Shown: positions 11,306 to 59,086 of the stretch, piece after piece | Layout: each line of letters begins with the position of its first letter | Position numbering within the stretch: the stretch's first letter is position 1 | From: a virus | Taxonomy: Duplodnaviria; Caudoviricetes | Length of the DNA stretch: 64,000 nt | IMG/VR virus record: IMGVR_UViG_2654587976_000001 | Coordinates: 1 to 64,000 of that record | Reading direction: 5' to 3' (one strand) | Program-made: the position numbers and the translations under genes | Notes under the pieces: model-generated | Seen by the model: the letters and a program-made list of their open reading frames with translations, nothing else | What the model was told of the DNA's origin: nothing | The model's database searches: none

Positions 11306-11332
11306 AAAAAGAGCCAGCATATTAACTGGCTC
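11306..11332 (-). terminator. Terminator-like hairpin after cwlP
   Basis: GAGCCAG...CTGGCTC stem followed by TTTTT on the minus strand. Confidence 0.65.
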
Positions 11333-13814
11333 ATGAGTTGTTGAAATTTATACCTTTGTTTTTAAGACCATTTGCAAATTTATTGAATACAAAATCAGCT
11401 GTTTTCTGAGGATTCCCTGATTCGTTAATGGTGAATTCAACTTTAAAATCATTGTTGTTTACAGTGCCATTTACTGACTTAGCTGCGTCTGGTGGGGAAG
11501 AGAGGTTTTGAATAGTCGGGATCAAACTATTAGAAAGACTCGATAGATTAATATTCGGAATTATTGATGGGATAGTTGTGATTCCTTTGTTAATCAAGGC
11601 TGCTAATTTTCCACCTTGCCCCCATTTAGGTGTCTCTTCACTTGGAGTATTGTTCTCACGTACAGCTTTTACTGTATCTAAGATGTTTGCAGTATCAGTT
11701 TTATTAAGGATAAGTTCCTTATCATGAAGGAAAGCGAGTTTACCTGTGCCTAGTCCTGTACCTGTATATCCACCCGATGCAAAAGAGGATACCTTTTTCC
11801 CAGTTTTATTACCTTTGGTCACAGTATTCAGGGCATTGGAGGCTTCTTTAAGCTTATCGATAAGGTTATTAGAGATACTTTTACCAATGGACTCCATATT
11901 GCTGTTAATGAATTTAGAGAATTCATTCAGTTGCTTAGCAATATCAGTAATCTTCCCATCCATTAGCTTTTTCTCAAGTTCCTTAAATCCACGCTCATCA
12001 TTGACGAGATCATCATATTTCTTGTTAATTGAATCTTCGTCTTTTTGAAGCTGATCTTGTAACGATTCTTTTCGTTTACTGTTTTCACGATCTTTAAGAA
12101 ACTCATCTAATGCTTCTTGCTGTTCTTGAAGTTGCTTTTCTAAGTCTTTAACCTGTGATTTTGCTTCATCTGAGTCATCGAGAGACAGTTTATTTAGCTT
12201 ATCTTTGGTTTCCTGAATAGCCTGATTCTTTTCTTTGAGCTCTTTTTGGTATTTAGCTTCATCATCAGTTTTATCAATCTCATCAATCAAGTCTTGTGTA
12301 GCTTTTTGGTGCGCTTTTAATTCGATATCACGCATCTTTTCGTACATCTCTTTGTAGATAGAGACAACTTCATCAGCAAGAGATTTGTACACATCTTTGA
12401 TTGATTTCTTTGTGTTGTAAAGCTCCAGGTTGTAATCCTTCTGCTTGTCTTTCCAGTTCTCGATTTCTTCAGTAATTTGTTTCTGAATATCCGGGAACCC
12501 TTTAGCAGCTTTCTTTTGTGCTTCCAACTGTTTGATATACTTCTTCGCTTCAGTCTGTTGCTGCTGAATAAGCTTAATCTGTTGGCTATAATATTTAACC
12601 TTGTCTTTATCTTCCTCGGTCATGGATATTTTGTTTCCAACATCTTTAAGCTTGGATTCAGTTTTCTTGGTTGATTTCTCTATGCCGTTAAGCGTTTCAT
12701 CAACTTTGGATTGGATGAGCTGTCCCTGAAGTTCTCTTACTTCTTCTTGGAAATTGATGAGATCAATCTTAGCTTGTTTTAATTCCTCAGCAAGCTGTGC
12801 TCTTTGAGCGGCATTCAGAGTTTTGTTTGTTTTGATTTCTTTTTCAATAAAAGAAACCTTCTGGCTCTGAATCTTTTGCTGTTCAGTTAAAGCTTTTTTC
12901 TGATCGTTTGTATACTTGCGGAATTCTTTACTGTCGCTCAGGTAATGACTAGCGAGCGCTTTGTCTTTAGCGATTCTTACGTCAAAATCGCCAATACGCT
13001 TGTCATATTCATCGAGTTTCGATTGAACGATCTCATATCTGAGCTCTTGTATCTGATCGTTTACTGAATCAATGTCACCTTGGAGAGAGAGGAGGTCTGA
13101 TTTAGCTTGTGCGATTGCTTGCTGTCGTTCTGCTTCAGCTTGAGATGCATCTGAAATAGATGTACCGACACCTTTTAAATACTTCTCAGGGTCAATCGTC
13201 TTTCCGTTTTCCTCAATTTGAAGATGAAGGTGATTTCCTGTTGAATTACCCGTACTGCCAACTTTACCGATGGTCTGACCAGCTTTAACAGTTTGACCGG
13301 CTTTAACAGAAGGGGTATCAAGCATATGCATATACTTAGCAACTTTTCCATCATCCTGCTGAATGACAACCCAGTTACCGGCAGTCTTGCTATAACCAGC
13401 AATTTGAACTTTTCCACTCTGAACCGATTTAATTGCGGTTCCAGCTTTTGCGGCAAAGTCTGTCCCTTTATGTGGAGTTGATCGGTAAGCGCCATCTTTC
13501 GCATTATATTTAGAACTTATTTTAAACGCACTGTTCTTCGTGTAGTAGCTTGCAATGGAGGAATTAGCAGAAGTCATTGACTTAGTGTAATTTGACATGA
13601 TCTTCTGAACATAATTCTGCGTTTCCTTGAAAGGAGGGATGCCACCATATTTGATTACATTCCCAGGCCCTGCGTTATAAGCAGCAAGTGCTTTCTCAAC
13701 ATTGCCACCAAATTTACTTAGTTGTTGGGCTAAATATTTCGTACCACCCATAATGCTCTGATAAGGATCATAAACATTGTTTACACCTAAACTCTTAGCT
13801 GTGGATGGCATCAA
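11331..13814 (-). CDS. cwlP: cwlP/yomI exon 2: rest of the SLT lytic transglycosylase, M23 peptidase and C-terminal coiled coil
   Basis: Begins TTG ATG CCA (LMP) right after the intron 3' end; AAYNAGPG, ETQNYV, HKGTD, YMHM and HLH motifs. Confidence 0.92.
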   Translation of the reverse strand: MMPSTAKSLGVNNVYDPYQSIMGGTKYLAQQLSKFGGNVEKALAAYNAGPGNVIKYGGIPPFKETQNYVQKIMSNYTKSMTSANSSIASYYTKNSAFKISSKYNAKDGAYRSTPHKGTDFAAKAGTAIKSVQSGKVQIAGYSKTAGNWVVIQQDDGKVAKYMHMLDTPSVKAGQTVKAGQTIGKVGSTGNSTGNHLHLQIEENGKTIDPEKYLKGVGTSISDASQAEAERQQAIAQAKSDLLSLQGDIDSVNDQIQELRYEIVQSKLDEYDKRIGDFDVRIAKDKALASHYLSDSKEFRKYTNDQKKALTEQQKIQSQKVSFIEKEIKTNKTLNAAQRAQLAEELKQAKIDLINFQEEVRELQGQLIQSKVDETLNGIEKSTKKTESKLKDVGNKISMTEEDKDKVKYYSQQIKLIQQQQTEAKKYIKQLEAQKKAAKGFPDIQKQITEEIENWKDKQKDYNLELYNTKKSIKDVYKSLADEVVSIYKEMYEKMRDIELKAHQKATQDLIDEIDKTDDEAKYQKELKEKNQAIQETKDKLNKLSLDDSDEAKSQVKDLEKQLQEQQEALDEFLKDRENSKRKESLQDQLQKDEDSINKKYDDLVNDERGFKELEKKLMDGKITDIAKQLNEFSKFINSNMESIGKSISNNLIDKLKEASNALNTVTKGNKTGKKVSSFASGGYTGTGLGTGKLAFLHDKELILNKTDTANILDTVKAVRENNTPSEETPKWGQGGKLAALINKGITTIPSIIPNINLSSLSNSLIPTIQNLSSPPDAAKSVNGTVNNNDFKVEFTINESGNPQKTADFVFNKFANGLKNKGINFNNS

Positions 13815-16299
13815 GTAGAGTAAGAACCCGGCGCCTTGGCATATCTCTATGCTAGGTTTCCAAGAACTCCTCTCCGAACCGTACGTACACCTCTCGATGT
13901 ATACGGCTCTCCACTTATCAATCTAGCTTTCCGTTGTGCAATTTGAGATGGCAGTCTTTACAAAGCGCCATGGTTTTACGTTTTCTTTCAACCATGCGCT
14001 TTTCCCATCTTTTCTTGCCTTTTAGGTCTTTTAGCTTCCTAACGTGATGAATTTCAAGTGGCACGTTTGTACTATTGCACCATTCGCATTTTTCCGCTAA
14101 AAGTCTATCAATCAAACTCGTTCTATTATAAATAATTCCTCGTCCCATCGGGACGGCGTCTATAGAGATATCTTTGGAAATTTCGGTTTGCTTTCTAAAC
14201 CCATTATTGTAAAAGTAGGAAATTCTTTGCCCATTCTTCGTCTGATACCTTACGGCAAATTTGCCATTCACACTATACTTACTGATGATTTTGCTAACGC
14301 TTGATTTGTACTTACAAGCAAATGTTTTGTACATGCTGTATTCCATAATGTAACTAAAGCGATGAAGCTTGTATGCATTATTTGCTAAGCGATAATAGTT
14401 GTATAACCCTCTGATTTCAGCATTGTATATCGCAAGGATCTCTAAGTCATCATTTTGAAGAAGATGGGATCTGTGCATTGATTTCCATTTCTGATTCTTC
14501 GAATCTATTCTTATCGCTTTGTATTCAATAAGCTTGTTTCTCCACGCTTCATGAGGGACAAGAAGTTCACAAACCATTGATCTGGTTCGTTGCTTGTGTC
14601 CACTACTGGTGCGTTTTGAAGTTGAAGGATCATGACTGACCTTTATGTCATATCCCAAGAATCTTGCTCTGTTGGATGAGTGGGTGATTAGTGTTTTCTC
14701 TTGAGATAGCTCGACTTTGAGCTCTTGGATAAGATATTCTGTGATGTCTTTTTTAATTCTTTCACAGTCCTCTTTGCTACCAATAACACCGATAATGAAA
14801 TCATCAGCGTATCGCACGTATTGCAACCTTTTAAAACCATCGTCCATAGGGTCTTTATATGGTAATTCCATCATTTCATTTTTAAGTTGTTTAAGGTGAA
14901 CTATTGCATCTTCTTTTTCTTGTTCGTTCATGTCGTCCCAATTGTTTTTGTATTTATTTCTCGCTCGGAAGAGCCGCGTTTCTTTTGTGCGGTACTCTGT
15001 CGATCTCTTGCGAGAATTACCTTTGTCGAAAGATGTTTTATATTTCTCGATGAACTGATCCAGTTCATTCAAGTAGATATTCGACAGTATGGGGCTTATG
15101 ATCCCACCTTGAGGTGTTCCACTGTAAGTTTTACGATACACCCAATCTTCAAGAAAGCCTGCTCTGAGGAATTTCCATATGAGACTAATAAAGTTTTCGT
15201 CATCAATTTTCCTTCTGAGAATGTTTATAAGGATATGATGATCTATGTTGTCAAAGAAACCTTTTATATCGCCTTCTATGAACCACTTAGTACCAGTGAA
15301 TTTATTTTTTGCCTGGGTTAGAGCAGTATGACAACTTCGATTAGGCCGAAACCCGTGGGACACTGTGGAAAACGTTTTGTCATAGATGCTTGAAAGAAGC
15401 ATTCTCACTACTTCCTGTAGCAACTTATCTTCGAATGATGGTATACCCAATGGACGTTTTTTCCCGTTCTTCTTTGGGATATATGTTCGTTTCGATGGTT
15501 TTGGTTGATAGCTGTGATCTTTAAGACTGTTAATCAAATTCTCAATGCGTTCTAGGCTCATACCGTCGATAGTTTGACCGTCGGCACCTTCTGTCATATT
15601 TCCTTCTTTAGAATAGATGTTTGAATAGGCTAAGAGATAAAATTCCGTGTTGTACAAATTTCTATATAGACGTTTAAATTTATAATCCGAACGAGTTGTT
15701 TGTCTCGCTAGACTGTCTAACACGACTTGTGGACTTCTCATAGAGCCTCACGCTCCTTTCCATTTTTGTGTAAGACATGATAAGCTGTTTCCCTTCGCCA
15801 TGTGGTAGGCTTTCCCTACCTCGGACTACTACGGAAACTCCGTTACCTTATTGGATATTCAGGCACTAAATGCCATAGCTATTAAGCGTTCCAACTTAGG
15901 TAATCACCGTTTAGCACATGTAAGAACAAGCGCGTTGTAATTTCGGATGCGACGTTCGTCCTTTTCTTCTTATTGAAGACGGTCAACCTTTAGATCACTC
16001 CCGATTGACATGCAATTAATCAATAGGGTATTGGTTGTATAACGTTTATAAATACCTTCCGTTATAGATGGCCCTTTAATCACCTCGGACTATCGTTTAA
16101 GCAGTTTAGCTTTCACCCTTGTTTACAACTTTTCATCTTGCCATTCAGTCGTACCGTGGTATTTCGATAACTTATGGCTTTCTCAACATGCTACACTCCC
16201 CGTTCAGTTTCCTTCCCGGATAAGTTGAGTGATGACAGGAGACGTGATCGTACCTGTTTCTTGCTAAAGAAAATTTCTTACATGACCTTACGGTCGCAC
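13815..16299 (-). mobile_element. Group II intron (2485 nt, Ll.LtrB-like) in cwlP
   Basis: 5' GTGCG at 16299, 3' ...CTCTAC at 13815, domain V GAGCCGTATACATCGAGAGGTGTACGTACGGTTC; candidate EBS1 TTGCAT (16010-16015) in a stem-loop pairs with exon end ATGCAG; removal restores GLMQLMP in frame. Confidence 0.95.
13918..15741 (-). CDS. ltrA: Intron-encoded reverse transcriptase/maturase with HNH endonuclease
   Basis: RPLGIP, GTPQGGIISP, YVRYADD, domain X, C-terminal CEWC...EIHH...LCKDCH. Confidence 0.95.
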   Translation of the reverse strand: MRSPQVVLDSLARQTTRSDYKFKRLYRNLYNTEFYLLAYSNIYSKEGNMTEGADGQTIDGMSLERIENLINSLKDHSYQPKPSKRTYIPKKNGKKRPLGIPSFEDKLLQEVVRMLLSSIYDKTFSTVSHGFRPNRSCHTALTQAKNKFTGTKWFIEGDIKGFFDNIDHHILINILRRKIDDENFISLIWKFLRAGFLEDWVYRKTYSGTPQGGIISPILSNIYLNELDQFIEKYKTSFDKGNSRKRSTEYRTKETRLFRARNKYKNNWDDMNEQEKEDAIVHLKQLKNEMMELPYKDPMDDGFKRLQYVRYADDFIIGVIGSKEDCERIKKDITEYLIQELKVELSQEKTLITHSSNRARFLGYDIKVSHDPSTSKRTSSGHKQRTRSMVCELLVPHEAWRNKLIEYKAIRIDSKNQKWKSMHRSHLLQNDDLEILAIYNAEIRGLYNYYRLANNAYKLHRFSYIMEYSMYKTFACKYKSSVSKIISKYSVNGKFAVRYQTKNGQRISYFYNNGFRKQTEISKDISIDAVPMGRGIIYNRTSLIDRLLAEKCEWCNSTNVPLEIHHVRKLKDLKGKKRWEKRMVERKRKTMALCKDCHLKLHNGKLD

Positions 16300-19200
16300 C
16301 TGCATTAATCCGGCTGCGCCTGCTCCAGAACGAGCTCTTGCATTGAATCCTGATTCTTGTTGGATTACAGCTGCAATTAGAGCTGGATCAACACCGTATT
16401 TGCTTGCGGCAGAATTAATGTAGCTGGAGTATTTACCGGAGTAAGACCCGCCACCAGAAGAATAAGAACCACCAGAAGATGAACCAGAGGAAAGGGAAGA
16501 GGTTACGATACCGTATTGTGCAATGTTCCCTGACTTAATTTGATCCTTGAGGAGTTTGGCTTGCTCCTGCATAAGCTTTTTCTTTTGTTGAAGAGCTTTA
16601 ATTTCTTTCTGCAGGGCATTTCGATAACTTTGAGAATACTTTGGATAGTCGTTTACCTGCTTATTGTACTTTTCAACTTCAGCGGTGACTTTCTCCAGAG
16701 CTTCCTTGTATTTATCAGCCACGTACATAGATGTTTTCATTTCCTCAGAGGCTTTATCACTTGAAGAAGAAAGGTCGTCAAGAGATGTTCCTGTTTCGGA
16801 TAGGGAAGTTGAAGCCAAATCGGCTAGTTTATCAAGCTCTTTAAGCTGATCAGTGATATCAGTGACCTGGTTTAAATCATCCTGTGTTTTGGGTAGGAAC
16901 TGCAGCGCACCACTGTTCCCTTTTTTTAGTTCGTCGTATATCTTTTTCTTGTTGTCTTCAAGCTCAGACTTCATTTTATAAGCGTCTTGAACAGTCTTGA
17001 TAGCCTTGACTTCAGACTTATACATATTAATCTTTTTATTTAATGCATTAGCCTGATTAATTAGATCTTGTCTTACAGATTGTTGCATATCATTATAAGC
17101 TTTGAGTTTTGTGTCCCGAAGCTTAACAACTGCATTTCTGTTGATTTTTACAACACCATTTTCAACTGAAATTGCATCAGCAAGATCATGTTCTTTCTGA
17201 ATAAGCTTCATGGCTTCTGTTGCAGATATGCTTTTACCTTCAGACATTTTTTCAAGGAGGTTGTTTAAAGGGGAAATGCTGTCAGACATAGTATCATAAG
17301 CTTCATTTTGAATAGCAGATATAGCAGCATCATTTTGCTTCGATTCAACTAATTCATCGATGATTCCTTTAATTGCTTCAAAATCACCTTTAGCTTCTTT
17401 GAGCTTGTCAGATAAATTCCCGACTTGCTCACCTAATGCATCTACACCTTCACCATTTTCATCCCAGGTTACTTTTGCAGTTTGTGCAGAATCGTTTGTA
17501 GAGTCAATGGCAGTTTTAAGATCATCATAAGATAAAGCCAAACCATTAGCTTTATCTTTACCACTCATATATTGATTAACAAGCTGTTCTAAGCTTTTAG
17601 AGGCGGAATCAAAATTATTTTTATTCCCCGATTGCAGAGCTTTTTGGATATTATCCATGTATTTCGAAACATTTATTGAAAATGACTCAAGTTCATCTGC
17701 ATTCATTTTGCTGAAGTCAATTTTATCAAATGCGTTAGATATTTCCCTTGAAAGATTCGGATTTATCTTTATTGAGTTAAAGGCATCAATTGTCTGTTGT
17801 ACTTGCTCTCTAATTTTAGCCTGTGAGCTGGATAGCTCTTGTTCAGTACGTAGTGCATCTTGTTCAGCTTTAATACCTTGATTTTTTTTGTCATTTTCAG
17901 AAGAGAAAATATCCCAACTCTTGCCGTTTTTATAATAATCGGCAACCTGCTTGTACTGTTTAATCTTATCATTGAGTTTATCAATGTCTTTTAAGCTTTC
18001 CTTAAAGTTACTATTGGCACCTGTTTGAATGTCTTTTTTGTTTAAATTACTAAGGTCTTCAGTGTACTTTATAGCATCCTTAAGTGCTTGGTTTTTCTTT
18101 AATATTGCTTGCCCTTGAGAATCATAACCAGCGATCAAATTCGGGAATGTTTGTGCTAATTGTTGTGTTACTTGCAGATATTCTTGCTCTTGGTCAGCCG
18201 ATAAAGCTCCGCCATCTTTAGCCTTTTGTAATTCTTTGTATTGACTAATCAGTTTGTCTGTTTCATCTTTATTCGTTGTAATTGCTTCAATGCTAGTAGT
18301 TTTAGCTTGCTCAAAGTCTTCTCTAGCTTGTTTTAATTCAGAATAAGAGGAAATGAGTTTCTCGATAACGACGCCAAGTCCAACCATAGCTGCCATTGGA
18401 AGAAAACTGCCCGCTAAAAACGCGCTTGCAGAGACTGCTACTTTCTTTAGATTGCTCATCGCAACGCTTGAAGCATTAACCACTCGAGTCCAAACTGCAG
18501 TTTTAGCTGAAGCTGTGGTTGCGCCAATCCCAACAGCATTAAAGTTTAAGACAAGATTTTTAAGGGTTGATATTGCAGACATTCCAGTTGAGATGGTAGC
18601 TGTACGAAGAGAGGTGTTGAAAAGCAGGATTGCAGTTGTCGCAGAACCAAAAACTTGAGGGAGGAGCCCGACTGTTTTAGTAATTTGAGCACTTGTTTGC
18701 ATTAATCCTTTAAGTGCTTCTGCAAAAACAACAATGCTATTAGAGATGAAGGCTTCACTTGAGGCAACCGACATTTCTGTAAATGCATTTGACAGCCTGT
18801 TTAATCTTGCCTGTAAACTGTCAGCGTATTTCTGCTGTTCACTCCAAGCGCTTCCTGCGGAATTAGCTGCAGTGGTCGCTGCATTTTGTGATATGGAAAA
18901 ATTATTCATCAAGGCATTAAATCTAGAAAGCTGATAAATGCCCGCTACACCTATTGAGGTATTTTGTTTTTGAGCATCGCTGAGGGTATTCCATTTGTCT
19001 GCTAACTCATTAATTAAATCAGTAGCAGATTTCGCCTCACCACTGGCAGTTTTCACAGAAATACCAATCTGTTCTAAGGCTTTAATTGAGCTATCATTAT
19101 TTCCAATACGTGCGAAAATGGTTTTAAGTGAGTTACCAACAATGTTTCCTGATTCACGGGTTGTGCTTGCAATTGCTGTAGTATAACCAATCAGATCGTT

Positions 19201-20700
19201 TAATTCAACACCAAAAGTGGAAGCGGTGCTTCCTGCTTTTCGAATCGAATTCGCTAGGTCAAGAGTAGTTACAGCATAGTTGTTATCGACTTCATTAAGC
19301 TTATCTGCAATTGAAATAGAATCATTCGCAGCAATATTGAAGTTTAACATTGCGGCAGTTAAAGTGTTAACTGTGTCGTCAGGAGTCAAGTCAGAGACGT
19401 TTTGAAGTACCTGAGCGGTTTTTGTTAGAGTGGACAGTTCACTTTCATCGAACCCCATACGCCCGAAATCGCCAGTCATTTGAAGTATGTCAGTGATCTT
19501 GTTTGAAAGAGTGTCTCCTAGGTTTATTGATTCCTCGAGTAGCTCATTGTACTTATAATCAGGCTCATTCATTACACGTCTGATGTTTGTCATTAGAGTA
19601 TCAATTTCAACAGCCTGGGAGACCATTTCCTTGAGTCCAGATATAGCGCCATAGAATAAAGAACCGGAGATCAAATATGTCGACATACTTTTGAAAGCTT
19701 GAGTTAACTCCGTGCCAAAAGAGGAGGCTTGACTAGACGCTGTTTGAGCATTTGAAGCCAACTCCCTAAATTGCATGTTCAAGCTTTGCATTTGAGATCT
19801 GATATTACTACCGCCGGCACTTACATTAAGACTATTTACTGCATTTAAATAATCTTGAGCAGCTTGTCTATTGCCGGCACCCATTGTATCGCCGTAACGT
19901 GTATTAAGGTTTTGTACGTTTACCTGCGCTTGGCGTTGATACAACTCAATAGTTTTTCTGAGTTCATTATTTTTCGCCACAGCAGCAGACTTATCATCGA
20001 GCATCTTAATTCTGTTTTGTAATGCTTCAATTTGTTGTGCTGTTTGAGCAGTATTTAGTTTCCGTCCAAGGGAAGAGAGAGTGGTGTCAGTTACAATCCC
20101 TTGTTGTCTAAGTTTTTCTAAATCCAGCTTTAATTGTTCAATTGCTTTTCGTTGTTGATCATAGTTTGTTGTAACTTTCGACGATGTAGCGTTTGTTTTT
20201 GGGTCTGTTGTATAGGAAATATCGTCAAAGCCGTTGCGGTTCTTTTGAGTAACCCTCGTTGTTTGTCCTTGAGCATTCTTTTGTTCTGTTTTCTTCTGTA
20301 CCTGACCAAGTTTTTCAGTCGCTTGGGCAAGCCTGTTAACTTCTTGTGTTTGTTCACGTAATGATTGATTACGATTGTCTATGGTCTTTGTTTCACGCTG
20401 AATTATTTCGCCATTTTTCTTATACTGCTGCGTTAGTTTTTCAACAGTACCATCGGCATTTCTGGTAATCGTTGTAGTTTCTTTAACTGTTTGATTGAAG
20501 GATTTGAGATGTTTTTGGTAAGAGTCAACCGCAGAGGAGAAGTCGTTGAGAGTCTTTAAAGCAGAGGCATCAATATTGGTCTTTAAATTAAGGGAATTTA
20601 GCTTTTTCTCTAAAGATTTAATTTGCTGATTTAACTGTTCGACAGTTTTTGAAGAAGTATCAGCTTTGGGTGTGAGTATGATCTTTAAATCTTGACTCAA
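16300..20700 (-). CDS. cwlP: cwlP/yomI exon 1: tape-measure domain and N-terminal half of the SLT domain (probable TTG start at 20700; spliced product ~2294 aa)
   Basis: TP901-type tape-measure core (TRESGNIVGNSLKTIFARI); IQQESGFN...GAAGLMQ ends at the intron start. Confidence 0.92.
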
Positions 20701-20763
20701 ATATAGGTCACATCCTTTCGAATAGGGGAGAGTGATTTTTAGGGCATATAAAAAAGCCACTCG

Positions 20764-50698: not shown

Positions 50699-50878
50699 GT
50701 GCTTGAGAAAGTGGGTATAACAATTGCTTTCCTTATTCCTATCACGGTTTTAATCATCAACTGTTTAACAATAGCTGAGAAGATTCAAAACCTGATGAAG
50801 AATAAAGAAAGCAAAAAGAAAAAGCGTACACGCAAGCGCCTCCGTAGCAAGAGACAACGCAAACGTATACGCAGATAA
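50699..50878 (+). CDS. yonT: Type I toxin YonT (59 aa, GTG start)
   Basis: AAAGGAGG RBS; LEKVGI...TM helix plus very basic tail (KKKKRTRKRLRSKRQRKRIRR) like SPbeta YonT; TGCTATAAT extended -10 upstream. Confidence 0.88.
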   Translation: MLEKVGITIAFLIPITVLIINCLTIAEKIQNLMKNKESKKKKRTRKRLRSKRQRKRIRR

Positions 50879-50912
50879 CACGCTAAAGGGGAATTAATCC
50901 CCTTTAGTCACT
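50810..50912 (-). ncRNA. SR6-like antisense antitoxin RNA (ends approximate)
   Basis: Minus-strand TTTACA-N16-TATAAT promoter with TG extension at 50919-50946; hairpin 50883-50907; overlaps the yonT 3' end as known for SR6. Confidence 0.6.
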
Positions 50913-57498: not shown

Positions 57499-57713
57499 AT
57501 CATTCCGAGAGAGTCGTTATGAATGTTGAAAAAAACGAGAACGGATTTGTAGTTGTAAAAGAGCATTATACAGAAGAGGGTATCCGCGAAAACCAATGCT
57601 TTTGTTTTGATAGAGATAAGGCTAGTGCAGAGGCTGAACGTATTCAAAATGAAATTGATCCAGAACATAACGAATGGAAAGTGACTTATGAACCTGTAGA
57701 GATTATTAGATAG
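57495..57713 (+). CDS. Small hypothetical protein
   Basis: AAGGAG RBS; stop lies at the start of the 58-bp repeat. Confidence 0.6.
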   Translation: MNHSERVVMNVEKNENGFVVVKEHYTEEGIRENQCFCFDRDKASAEAERIQNEIDPEHNEWKVTYEPVEIIR

Positions 57714-57809
57714 TCGTTTGGGTGACTATAAACAGACATTAAGCCCAGAGCGTCCTTCCTGCTGCGGGAAAAGAAAACAACTCATAAAACATAAGGAAGT
57801 GTTATTCAG

Positions 57810-58065: not shown

Positions 58066-58305
58066 TTGAGTTATGAACGTCCAGGCTTTACTTTTGCGGA
58101 AGCAGTAGTATTGTCCCTGAAGATCATGTTAACGATTGCTATTGTAATTGGTGATGCATTCTTTATACGTTGGCTTTACACAAATGATTACGTTATTTCG
58201 ACTTATGTGACTGGTGGATTTTCATTTTTTGTTTTTTGGTTTTTATGTTTTGGACTCCCGAATGAGAGATTAAATGTCGCCTGGGCGACTATAAACAGAC
58301 ATTAA
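58066..58305 (+). CDS. Small two-TM protein
   Basis: GGGGGA RBS; hydrophobic; 3' end runs into the last repeat copy. Confidence 0.6.
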   Translation: MSYERPGFTFAEAVVLSLKIMLTIAIVIGDAFFIRWLYTNDYVISTYVTGGFSFFVFWFLCFGLPNERLNVAWATINRH

Positions 58306-58339
58306 GCCCAGAGCGTCCTTCCTGCTACGGGAAGGGGTT

Positions 58340-59086
58340 GTGAAAAATATAAGGAGAGAATGGGGGCGTTTTAAAAAAATGGCAGCAGTACTAAAAATGA
58401 AAGAATCTGATTTGTTCGAACCTGTTAAGTCGTTTCTAATAAAAAATGGTTGCTCGAAAGTTTATGGGGAAGTTCTCGGATGTGATGTATTTGGGATAAA
58501 TGGAGTGTGTGATATTGTCGTAGAATTGAAGACAACGTTGAGTTTTAAACTGATTGATCAAGCTTTAGACAGATTGAACCATGGTCATTACGTTTACATT
58601 GCAGTACCTAAGAGAAAAGGGCATATACCTAGATGTGTGAAATACCTACTTGAAGAAAAAAATATAGGTTTACTTGAAGTAGGTAAAGACAAATATTCAG
58701 ACGACATTATAGTACATGTTTCAATTCCTGCAAAATACAATCGCCTTGCTACTGAATGGAAGAAGAGAGGATTAAAGTCAACCAGAGACTATATAAAGGA
58801 CTACCACGAAACACAAATGGGGGGTGTAAAGGGGGGAGAGAGTGTTACTGAGTATTCTAACATGATTGATAATATTAAAGATTTCTTGTACCGCAGAATG
58901 CGTGGAAAATGGGCTACAATTGAAGAAATATTGAACCATTGTGAAACGTATTATTCAAATCCAAAACCAAGTCTAAACGCAACTTTGCAAGCGAAATGGA
59001 ATAGTGATTGGTGTGAATCTAAAGTGGTTAATCGAAAAAGATATTTCAGAATTCGAAAGGAACAATATTATGGGGAAGGGATCTAA
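58340..59086 (+). CDS. DUF2161-like PD-(D/E)XK protein (true start probably 58379 or 58397)
   Basis: MKESDLFEPVK.FL...GEV..CDV...IVVELK..L...LI.QA.DR....VYIAVP. Confidence 0.7.
   Translation: MKNIRREWGRFKKMAAVLKMKESDLFEPVKSFLIKNGCSKVYGEVLGCDVFGINGVCDIVVELKTTLSFKLIDQALDRLNHGHYVYIAVPKRKGHIPRCVKYLLEEKNIGLLEVGKDKYSDDIIVHVSIPAKYNRLATEWKKRGLKSTRDYIKDYHETQMGGVKGGESVTEYSNMIDNIKDFLYRRMRGKWATIEEILNHCETYYSNPKPSLNATLQAKWNSDWCESKVVNRKRYFRIRKEQYYGEGI

What the first reader, a model, noticed from the sequence alone, without database searches (positions are those of the whole stretch)
11331..20700. Intact-looking group II intron inside the catalytic GLMQ|LMP motif of the tape-measure/CwlP gene
Seen: phase-0 insertion 13815-16299 with GUGCG...AC ends, domain V, an intact RT (YADD), maturase and HNH domain. 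A stem-loop presents UUGCAU, complementary to the exon end AUGCAG. Unspliced mRNA gives a tape measure ending VRP* without most of the SLT, the M23 domain and the C-terminus. Established: Ll.LtrB-type introns usually sit in conserved motifs of mobile-element genes such as relaxases. Inference: virion assembly depends on maturase-assisted splicing, and the intron can home into sister phages or other SLT genes.
Basis: partly seen in the sequence, partly recalled or inferred. Interest (0 to 1): 0.7.

Follow-up and report, generated by a model that had tools for sequence, protein, structure and literature searches.

The report
Mobile intron inside phage tail gene
A complete, LtrB-type self-splicing group II intron sits exactly inside a conserved cell-wall-cutting motif of the giant tail tape-measure gene of an SPbeta-like Bacillus prophage; this kind of element in phages was described in 2025, so it is a well-built new example and not a new principle.

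Summary
On the minus strand, 13815-16299 is a 2485-nt group II intron with these features:
- a GUGCG 5' end and an AC 3' end;
- an Rfam domain V/VI match (61.9 bits);
- a DI-DIII fold that keeps 143 of 148 family consensus pairs;
- an intact 607-aa RT-maturase-HNH protein, collinear with LtrA (E 7e-163).

It splits the yomI/cwlP tape-measure gene in phase 0 at GLMQ|LMP. Uninterrupted homologues run straight through the site: phi3T, and a B. velezensis protein 96-97% identical.

An 11-bp EBS1/delta helix fits the junction, and the same loop covaries with the target in relatives. EBS2-IBS2 pairing is at chance level here.

The closest intron relatives (8 loci) sit at the same GxMQ|FMP motif of two-domain cell-wall hydrolase genes. 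A 99% identical copy lies antisense in a Tn3-type transposase, which argues for recent mobility.

Splicing itself is not shown. The one exon-exon joint seen in RNA contigs may come from an intron-less allele.

Group II introns in phages, including an SPbeta-like phage, were published by Merk et al. in 2025. This is a new member of a known kind, of moderate interest.

The parts
16300..20700 (-). Exon 1 of the tape-measure/CwlP (yomI homologue) gene, 1467 codons. It holds the PhageMin_Tail domain and the first third of the SLT domain, and ends ...SGAGAAGLMQ.
   Evidence: ORF. Pfam PhageMin_Tail and SLT profile positions 2-42 of 117. The start, TTG at 20700, is set by collinearity with phi3T_24 and P0017.
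13815..16299 (-). Group II intron, 2485 nt, IIA / LtrB-like. It is the single copy in the 128,870-b provirus record.
16295..16299 (-). 5' terminal GUGCG. The in-frame read-through gives VRP then stop.
15906..16294 (-). Domain I (intron nt 6-394).
   Evidence: RNAalifold consensus of 11 related introns. The window forms 143 of 148 consensus pairs.
16010..16020 (-). EBS1 plus delta: AUUAAUUGCAU, in the loop of the hairpin at 16000-16028. It pairs with exon -6..+5 AUGCAG|UUGAU (9 Watson-Crick and 2 G-U pairs).
   Evidence: The homologous loop covaries with the target in L034, L017 and L002.
16069..16075 (-). Presumed EBS2 (AGGGCCA, intron nt 225-231). It is poorly matched to exon -13..-7 CGGAUUA.
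   Evidence: The same position pairs with 7 bp in L007, 6 bp in L017 and 5-6 bp in L008, L010, L014 and L016. The window scores 4.0, a value reached by 39% of random 10-mers.
15843..15903 (-). Domain II (intron nt 397-457).
15787..15838 (-). Domain III (intron nt 462-513).
13918..15741 (-). Intron-encoded protein in domain IV, 607 aa. It has RT (YADD at about 14800-14811), the maturase X domain and a C-terminal HNH endonuclease. A conserved GGAAAGGAG Shine-Dalgarno hairpin lies just upstream (15742-15756).
   Evidence: Pfam. TIGR04416 scores 293 bits against a cut-off of 300. LtrA 5g2x, E 7e-163, residues 5-600 against 5-593.
13876..13909 (-). Domain V (GAGCCGUAU...ACGUACGGUUC, GAGA loop).
   Evidence: Rfam RF00029 alignment.
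13815..13873 (-). Domain VI with a bulged A at 13821, 7 nt from the 3' end, and the terminal AC.
   Evidence: Rfam alignment and sequence.
11331..13814 (-). Exon 2, 827 codons plus stop. It begins LMPSTAKSLG and holds the rest of the SLT domain, Peptidase_M23 and the TMP C-terminus.

Best explanation
This is a functional, recently mobile subgroup IIA (Ll.LtrB-like) group II intron. It lives in the tape-measure/virion-lysin gene (yomI/cwlP homologue) of an SPbeta-like Bacillus prophage.

Proposed mechanism (inferred from the Ll.LtrB model):
- When the late operon is transcribed, the intron RNA folds.
- It pairs EBS1/delta with the last 6 nt of exon 1 and the first 5 nt of exon 2.
- With its own RT-maturase bound near the domain IVa start-codon hairpin, it splices through the bulged A at 13821.
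- Splicing joins ATGCAG|TTGATG and restores a 2294-aa protein (shown by collinearity).

Without splicing, only a 1470-aa fragment can be made. That fragment lacks two thirds of the SLT domain, the M23 domain and the C-terminus.

The excised RNP can reverse-splice into intron-less GLMQ|LMP sites (inferred). The lineage is a specialist of the GxMQ|[FL]MP coding motif of lysozyme-like domains. Its nearest relatives sit in two-domain hydrolase genes, and at least one of those lies next to a conjugative-mobilome membrane protein gene.
For: Anatomy is complete:
- Termini.
- Domains V/VI, 61.9 bits.
- DI-DIII: 148 consensus pairs, 66 of them with compensatory changes among 11 introns. The window keeps 143 of 148.
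- The IEP is full-length and collinear with LtrA, with YADD and the Cys/His endonuclease motifs.

Insertion is exact:
- phi3T_24 residues 1-1463 and 1464-2292 align to the two exons.
- P0017 (2294 aa, B. velezensis, on 3 contigs) is 1409/1467 and 802/827 identical, with no gap at the junction.

Target pairing:
- An 11-bp EBS1/delta helix.
- Mean helix score 8.07 for cognate pairs against 5.88 for non-cognate pairs.

Exon 2 is an intact 827-codon frame, 97% identical to the intron-less allele.

Mobility and spread:
- The exact IEP is seen on 15 contigs, and its 90% cluster has 10 members.
- 20 of 24 listed runs, from 12 studies, hold the stretch or part of it.
- Run X8 carries the intron at the same site, with only 5 differences listed inside the intron. 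Its exon-2 contigs differ at 17 of 222 and 9-11 of 190 places.
- L007 carries the same intron (17 substitutions plus one 15-nt deletion) antisense in a Tn3-family transposase gene.

Lineage:
- 8 loci with IEPs 72-77% identical all lie in phase 0 at G[HP][ML]Q|FMP of hydrolases that pair an SLT_2-like domain with NlpC/P60 or M23.
- The window plus L007 group with them in a clade of 12 rows with 100/100 support.
- L010's upstream neighbour is a CD3337/EF1877 mobilome membrane protein, 217.9 bits.

One RNA-library contig (X17, depth 22.5) joins 13814 to 16300 exactly.
Against: No direct proof of splicing:
- The X17 joined contig differs from the window at 24 of 515 and 19 of 348 exon positions. 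It could be a P0017-like intron-less allele.
- X1 holds the whole stretch in one 20.8-kb contig, from a run whose longest contig is 190 kb. That is probably DNA in the library.
- X4 shows no joint.

EBS2-IBS2 pairing at this site is at chance level. The copy in L007 fits its own site better, with 7 bp.

The window intron, L007 and BUCT083 lack a hairpin of about 38 nt that L008-L017 have.

No promoter-like site above chance was found in the intron. IEP supply probably depends on late transcription.

No Rfam D1-D4 model matched at E <= 0.01.

Whether this prophage forms plaques is unknown.
Confidence: 0.8

Rival explanations
1. The intron no longer splices efficiently at this ectopic site. The insertion then simply inactivates the tape-measure gene, and the element is carried passively in a defective prophage.
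For: EBS2-IBS2 is at chance level. No spliced joint was seen in the isolate RNA runs X1 and X4. Intron-less alleles 96-97% identical exist, so the intron-bearing form is not the only one in nature.
Against: Every RNA and protein element is intact. Exon 2 keeps an open 827-codon frame at 97% identity to the intron-less allele. The provirus record is rated 100% complete. The same intron has recently moved to another site. The intron-bearing allele occurs in several strains and studies.
Confidence: 0.12
2. The gene works as two products or as regulated isoforms. A 1470-aa tape measure ending VRP would be made without splicing. The lysin half would be supplied only when splicing occurs, or by separate initiation at the TTG that opens exon 2. 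Splicing efficiency would then tune virion lysin content.
For: Exon 1 retains the whole PhageMin_Tail domain. Gene callers in public records list the 1470-aa form as a protein (P0015, P0026). Exon 2 begins with TTG. Alternative splicing of a bacterial group II intron is on record for Clostridium tetani (passage in PMC4430133).
Against: No Shine-Dalgarno sequence precedes the exon-2 TTG; the upstream sequence is the DVI 3' strand GGGUUCUUACUCUAC. All 24 SPbeta-like phage records with a match keep one continuous gene annotation. The tape-measure C-terminus is generally needed for tail initiation (recalled knowledge).
Confidence: 0.06

Closest known systems
Ll.LtrB intron and LtrA of Lactococcus lactis (PDB 5g2x and others)
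   Same: The IEP aligns over its whole length (E 7e-163) with the same RT-X-D-En order. The EBS1 loop has an adjacent delta that pairs with the first exon-2 bases, which is the IIA style. It sits in a conserved motif of a mobile-element gene.
   Different: The host gene is a phage tape-measure/lysin, not a relaxase. The DNA and IEP are diverged. EBS2-IBS2 pairing is not evident at this site. Splicing and mobility are untested here.
Group IIA intron of Bacillus phage BUCT083 (ON107264), listed by Merk, Jones and Eddy, NAR 2025 (PMC12350094; Results read in full)
   Same: It is also in an SPbeta-like phage. The RNA 5' part is 72.4% identical over 44% of the intron. Its DV/DVI match is 60.1 bits. 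It also lacks the extra DI hairpin. Its EBS1/delta loop covaries with its own site.
   Different: It interrupts uvrX (…NQL|YYHAHG), not the tape-measure gene. Its IEP falls outside the 12-row clade that holds the window.
Introns at GxMQ|FMP of two-domain cell-wall hydrolase genes (loci L008, L010-L016; I found no name for them in print)
   Same: Nearest IEPs apart from L007 (72-77% identity). Same phase-0 position in the same protein motif, and nearly the same EBS1/delta loop.
   Different: Host genes combine an SLT_2-like domain with NlpC/P60 or M23 and are about 360-720 aa, not a tape measure. They carry an extra hairpin of about 38 nt in DI. Their EBS2 fits their IBS2.
Group II intron in orf14 of Tn5397, Clostridioides difficile (review PMC4430133, passages only; the primary paper is not held)
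   Same: A group II intron in a gene of a mobile element. The review reports that it splices in vivo and needs its IEP.
   Different: It sits in a conjugative transposon, not a phage. Whether the insertion is at the same motif was not checked here. That orf14 encodes a cell-wall hydrolase is my recollection.
Group I introns in tape-measure genes of Bacillus cereus-group prophages (Tourasse and Kolsto 2008, PMC2504315, passages)
   Same: Self-splicing introns inserted in frame in prophage TMP genes.
   Different: They are group I, not group II, and move by a different mechanism. That paper stated that group II introns were not found in bacteriophages.

Membership tests
Group II intron (ribozyme plus IEP retroelement) | 5' GUGYG and 3' AY termini | tested here: met
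   GUGCG at 16299-16295 and AC at 13816-13815.
Group II intron (ribozyme plus IEP retroelement) | Domain V with the AGC triad, and domain VI with a bulged branch A | tested here: met
   RF00029 scores 61.9 bits against a gathering score of 40. The bulged A is at 13821.
Group II intron (ribozyme plus IEP retroelement) | Conserved DI-DIII secondary structure supported by covariation | tested here: met
   148 pairs, 66 with compensatory changes. The window keeps 143 of 148.
Group II intron (ribozyme plus IEP retroelement) | IEP with RT (YADD), maturase X and an endonuclease domain in domain IV | tested here: met
   Pfam RVT_1, Intron_maturas2 and AI2M-like HNH, and the LtrA alignment. TIGR04416 scores 293.4 bits, just under its cut-off of 300.
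Group II intron (ribozyme plus IEP retroelement) | EBS1-IBS1 pairing with the 5' exon | tested here: met
   UUGCAU pairs with AUGCAG inside an 11-bp helix. The loop covaries in L034, L017 and L002.
Group II intron (ribozyme plus IEP retroelement) | EBS2-IBS2 pairing | tested here: inconclusive
   The best score in the homologous loop is 4.0, reached by 39% of random 10-mers. Relatives score 5-6.5.
Group II intron (ribozyme plus IEP retroelement) | Splicing in vivo | tested here: inconclusive
   One joint, 13814|16300, occurs in RNA contigs of X17, on exons about 5% diverged. There is none in X1 or X4.
Subgroup IIA / LtrA-like lineage | IEP closest to LtrA-type proteins | tested here: met
   Best PDB match is 5g2x at E 7e-163. 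The next best is 4e-43.
Subgroup IIA / LtrA-like lineage | Delta adjacent to EBS1 pairs with the first bases of exon 2 (not a separate EBS3) | tested here: met
   The helix runs without a break from -6 to +5.
Subgroup IIA / LtrA-like lineage | IIA-type lambda/epsilon' loop (the criterion quoted by Merk et al.) | not tested
   I did not map it. No Rfam D1-D4 model matched at E <= 0.01.
SPbeta YomI/CwlP tape-measure-lysin | PhageMin_Tail, SLT and Peptidase_M23 in one collinear protein of about 2290 aa | tested here: met
   Pfam. Exons of 1467 and 827 aa give 2294 aa, collinear with phi3T_24 (92% and 78% identity) and with P0017 (96% and 97%).
SPbeta YomI/CwlP tape-measure-lysin | Muramidase and DD-endopeptidase activities, and virion location | not testable with these tools
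   Known for SPbeta CwlP only through citations of Sudiarta et al. 2010 in PMC5380687 (passages).

The most novel reading that the evidence does not exclude
The intron lineage tracks one short coding motif (GxMQ|[FL]MP of lysozyme-like domains). Through that motif it crosses between conjugative-element hydrolase genes and phage tape-measure genes.

In the phage it would act as a competitive device. During co-infection or induction, its RNP would cut and invade the near-cognate site in rival SPbeta-like phages; 4 of 4 sites checked by script pair at 10-11 of 11 positions. The carrier's own virion production would be tied to its maturase.
Probability: 0.15. Interest if true: 0.7.

Novelty: new member of a known kind. 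Interest (0 to 1): 0.4.

Why it matters
Group II introns were long thought absent from phages. Since 2025 they are known to occur, but none has been shown experimentally to splice or move in a phage; Merk et al. say they did not test splicing.

This case is well suited for such a test:
- It lies in a genetically tractable Bacillus/SPbeta system.
- It splits an essential structural gene.
- A natural intron-less allele 96-97% identical is available.
- Near-cognate targets exist in laboratory phages (SPbeta, phi3T).
- A sister copy sits at an unrelated site.

It also documents a site-specific intron lineage shared between hydrolase genes of different kinds of mobile element.

Tried and rejected
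- Rfam at E <= 0.01 on the intron loci gave no D1-D4 model hit, only RF00029.
- An exact 20-mer of the intron 5' end found 0 matches in viral contigs.
- An 18-mer of the exon-1 end in metagenome contigs gave 21 hits. All were chance matches or unrelated genes. Two were foreign intron-less SLT sites (L097, L104), and none belonged to this phage lineage.
- In plasmids the best intron match is 74.5% identical, with no near-identical copy among 80 matching records.
- The viral contigs protein scan found only 3 distant IEPs, 42-51% identical.
- RNA contigs:
  - X1 holds the stretch in one piece, in a run that also has a 190-kb contig. That is likely DNA and uninformative.
  - X4 has separate intron and exon contigs (depth 8.67 against 2.4-3.9) and contig ends near both splice sites. 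The ends do not fall where a k=31 branch at the junction would put them, and contig depth cannot rank parts of a gene. I draw nothing from this.
  - The X17 joint is ambiguous.
- The promoter scan of the intron gave 6 sites against 6.6 expected.
- Pfam and PHROGs gave almost nothing for the neighbours of L008 and L010. Only NCBIfam named one neighbour. The conjugative-element context therefore rests on one locus.
- In one search the phi3T row hit the wrong place, an earlier GLMQ codon string in the same gene, and was dropped. The true phi3T site was read.
- My first guess, that the extra hairpin of relatives holds EBS2, was rejected. Pairing analysis places EBS2 at intron nt 225-231.
- Kin search for a virus record, earlier findings and the Tn5397 primary paper were not available.
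- Literature: two searches combining 'group II intron' with SPbeta, tape measure, yomI, CwlP, Spbetavirus, phi3T or SPbeta-like found no paper describing this intron. The SPbeta-relatives preprint has 0 occurrences of 'intron'.
- Supplementary Table S2 of Merk et al. lists 9,229 IMG/VR contigs with hits and may include this record. I could not read it.
Full report
**What is there**

The window is the first 64 kb of a 128,870-b provirus record rated 100% complete. It is an SPbeta-like Bacillus phage.

On the minus strand three ORFs follow each other:
- 16288-20760, 1490 aa, ending ...AGLMQVRP;
- 13918-15741, 607 aa;
- 11331-13814, 827 aa, beginning at a TTG and reading LMPSTAKSLG.

Pfam assigns these domains:
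- PhageMin_Tail and SLT profile positions 2-42 of 117 to the first ORF;
- RVT_1, Intron_maturas2 and AI2M-like HNH to the second;
- SLT positions 44-116 and Peptidase_M23 to the third.

Rfam places a group II domain V/VI at 13815-13911(-), with 61.9 bits against a gathering score of 40 and E 9.6e-10. The sequence shows ...GGATTAATGCAG|GTGCGACCGTAA... at 16300|16299 and ...CTTACTCTAC|TTGATGCC at 13815|13814.

**The insertion is exact**

phi3T gene 24 is the yomI homologue, 2294 aa, annotated as one CDS. It reads ...GVGAMGLMQLMPATAKSLG. Its residues 1-1463 align to exon 1 at 92.4% identity. Residues 1464-2292 align to exon 2 at 77.9%.

A much closer uninterrupted allele exists. P0017 is a 2294-aa 'phage tail tape measure protein' named by its source as Bacillus velezensis, seen on 3 contigs. 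It is 1409/1467 identical to exon 1 and 802/827 identical to exon 2, and it passes AGLMQ|LMPSTAK without a gap. With the start at TTG 20700, the spliced product would be 1467 + 827 = 2294 aa.

Among 50,697 phage records, the intron DNA finds only BUCT083, at another locus. The 24 SPbeta-like records that match exon 2 do so at 74.6-76.0% identity. Their annotations there name a single gene (checked in detail for phi3T, SPBc2, SPbetaL4 and Goe11).

**The intron looks functional**

The IEP aligns to LtrA over residues 5-600 against 5-593 (E 7e-163). YADD and the C-terminal Cys/His endonuclease motifs are kept.

I aligned the 5' parts of 11 related introns. RNAalifold predicts 148 pairs, and 66 of them show a compensatory change in at least one sequence. 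The window forms 143 of the 148; 2 more fall in a hairpin it lacks, and 3 are broken.

Domain VI has a bulged A at 13821, 7 nt from the end.

Intron nt 280-290 (AUUAAUUGCAU) form the loop of a hairpin. They pair without a break with exon positions -6 to +5 (AUGCAG|UUGAU; 9 Watson-Crick and 2 G-U pairs).

The assignment does not rest on this helix alone. The homologous loop changes with the target in relatives at other sites:
- L034: AACCAUUC against GAAUGG|UU;
- L017: GUUGCGUA against UGCGCAAC;
- BUCT083: AGUAUAGCUG against CAGUUG|UAUU.

Cognate intron-site pairs score 8.07 on average, against 5.88 for 120 non-cognate pairs. Shuffled versions of the window's site reach its score in 13 of 2000 trials.

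**A weak point**

The loop that serves as EBS2 in relatives pairs well at their sites:
- 7 bp in L007;
- 6 bp in L017;
- 5-6 bp in L008, L010, L014 and L016, always with exon -13/-12 to -7.

In the window it offers only a chance-level match to CGGAUUA. The score is 4.0, and 39% of random 10-mers reach that.

The window intron, L007 and BUCT083 also lack a hairpin of about 38 nt that the other relatives have. I take this to mean that the yomI site is recognised mainly through IBS1 and delta'. It may be a secondarily acquired site.

**Relatives and mobility**

A scan of species-representative genomes found 177 IEP relatives, of which 80 were kept.

The nearest is L007, with a 99% identical IEP. 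It is the same intron, with 17 substitutions and one 15-nt deletion. There it lies antisense inside the C-terminal part of a Tn3-family transposase frame, on a 2968-nt scaffold. From that position it cannot be spliced out of the host mRNA. This looks like a recent ectopic insertion.

The next nearest are L008 and L010-L016, with 72-77% identity. All 8 lie in phase 0 at ...G[HP][ML]Q|FMP[CL]T. Their host genes have exon 2 carrying a weak SLT_2 match followed by NlpC/P60 or M23. L009 shows the same 3' exon. L030, at 60% identity, sits at GHTQ|FMD.

In an IEP tree of 26 rows, the window plus L007 are sister to these within a clade of 12 rows with 100/100 support, and L030 is next outside at 89/76. 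The root is at the midpoint only, so I do not claim a direction of transfer.

One of these loci, L010, has a CD3337/EF1877 'mobilome membrane protein' gene just upstream (217.9 bits, cut-off 120). For L008 nothing was named.

Other LtrA-like lineages are equally site-specific. For example, 14 loci sit at HPRE[VI]|[FY][KR]EA (83 loci examined, both ends found in 64 by my criteria).

**Spread**

The exact IEP occurs on 15 contigs, and its 90% cluster has 10 members. Of 24 listed public runs, 20 hold the stretch or a part of it, from 12 studies.

In run X8 a 2961-nt contig carries the intron at the same site. Only 5 differences are listed inside the intron. Neighbouring exon-2 contigs differ at 17 of 222 and 9-11 of 190 places. 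That fits an intron younger than the alleles it sits in. The difference table was truncated, so I treat this as a hint.

**RNA evidence**

In metatranscriptome X17 one 6395-nt contig (depth 22.5) joins 13814 to 16300, skipping exactly 2485 nt. Intron pieces are present at depth 3-10 with no foreign flanks.

The contig's exons differ from the window at 24 of 515 and 19 of 348 places. P0017 shows that intron-less alleles of about that similarity exist. The joint therefore cannot be assigned to splicing.

X1 and X4 show no joint, and X1 probably contains DNA. Splicing thus remains inferred from intactness, from the preserved exon-2 frame and from the family's known behaviour.

**Homing potential**

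Intron-less sites in SPBc2, SPbetaL4 and Goe11 (GGGATTAATGCAA|CTGATGCC) give 10 of 11 pairs with EBS1/delta, with a single mismatch at +1. phi3T, read by eye, has the same sequence. Geobacillus virus E3 gives 11 of 11. IEP contacts with the DNA target could not be assessed.

**What is known**

- Tourasse and Kolsto 2008 described group I introns in prophage TMP genes. [quoted passage not shown]
- Merk, Jones and Eddy 2025 (Results read in full) reported 20 group II introns in curated phage genomes, including ON107264 (BUCT083) as type IIA. They also reported hits in 9,229 IMG/VR contigs, and they did not test splicing. Their main text has no occurrence of tape measure, tail or transglycosylase. 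Their supplementary list, which I could not read, may contain this record.
- SPbeta CwlP is cited as a 252-kDa virion-associated lysozyme plus endopeptidase (passages).
- A group II intron in orf14 of Tn5397 is reported to splice in vivo and to need its IEP (passages).

**Verdict**

The feature is real and correctly described, and it is very probably a working mobile IIA intron. The kind is known, and the case is a new member with two useful extras. It belongs to a lineage tied to the GxMQ|[FL]MP motif across different mobile-element hydrolase genes. Natural intron-plus and intron-less alleles exist for experiments. Interest is moderate.

Noticed in passing
window 57712-57766 (+) and 58275-58342 (+): Two Pistol ribozyme matches (RF02679; 41.3 and 66.0 bits against a gathering score of 34.5), about 500 nt apart in the prophage.
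   Followed up: no
window 50813-50910 (-): Match to the Bacillus SR6 antitoxin RNA (RF02892, 86.2 bits), as expected for an SPbeta-type type I toxin-antitoxin locus. BUCT083 shows BsrG at L002:523-800.
   Followed up: no
L007:250-2719: The same intron (99% identical IEP) lies antisense in a Tn3-family transposase frame, on a 2968-nt scaffold labelled Thermoflavimicrobium daqui. Its EBS2 fits that site (7 bp) better than the window's intron fits yomI. A scaffold this short could belong to another organism in the culture.
   Followed up: partly
intron nt 117-147 (window 16153-16183) compared with L007 and L002: In this stretch L007 differs from the window at 10 positions and instead matches the BUCT083 intron. 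This suggests recombination between intron lineages.
   Followed up: no
window 11331-20700 compared with L001: The tape-measure gene is mosaic. Exon 1 is 92.4% identical to phi3T_24 at the protein level, while exon 2 is only 77.9% identical.
   Followed up: no
L001 (phi3T), an earlier place in the same gene: A second GLMQ codon string (…DALKGLMQ|TSAQIT) carries the same IBS1-like hexamer ATGCAA but has no delta' match. It is unoccupied. The window's exon 1 has the same peptide, ALKGLMQTSAQ.
   Followed up: no
loci L020-L086: Other LtrA-like introns fall into strictly site-specific groups. Examples: 14 loci at HPRE[VI]|[FY][KR]EA; 4 Paenibacillaceae loci at FKMG|AGTNV in a protein of about 1300 aa; 3 Enterococcus loci at KMTYG|DDNKN; 6 Bacteroidota loci at Y[IL]KYL-F-KTVRKFF.
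   Followed up: no
window 15782, run X17: One RNA contig leaves the intron sequence at 15782, just upstream of the IEP start, with 91 foreign letters. This may be a related intron with a different 5' part.
   Followed up: no
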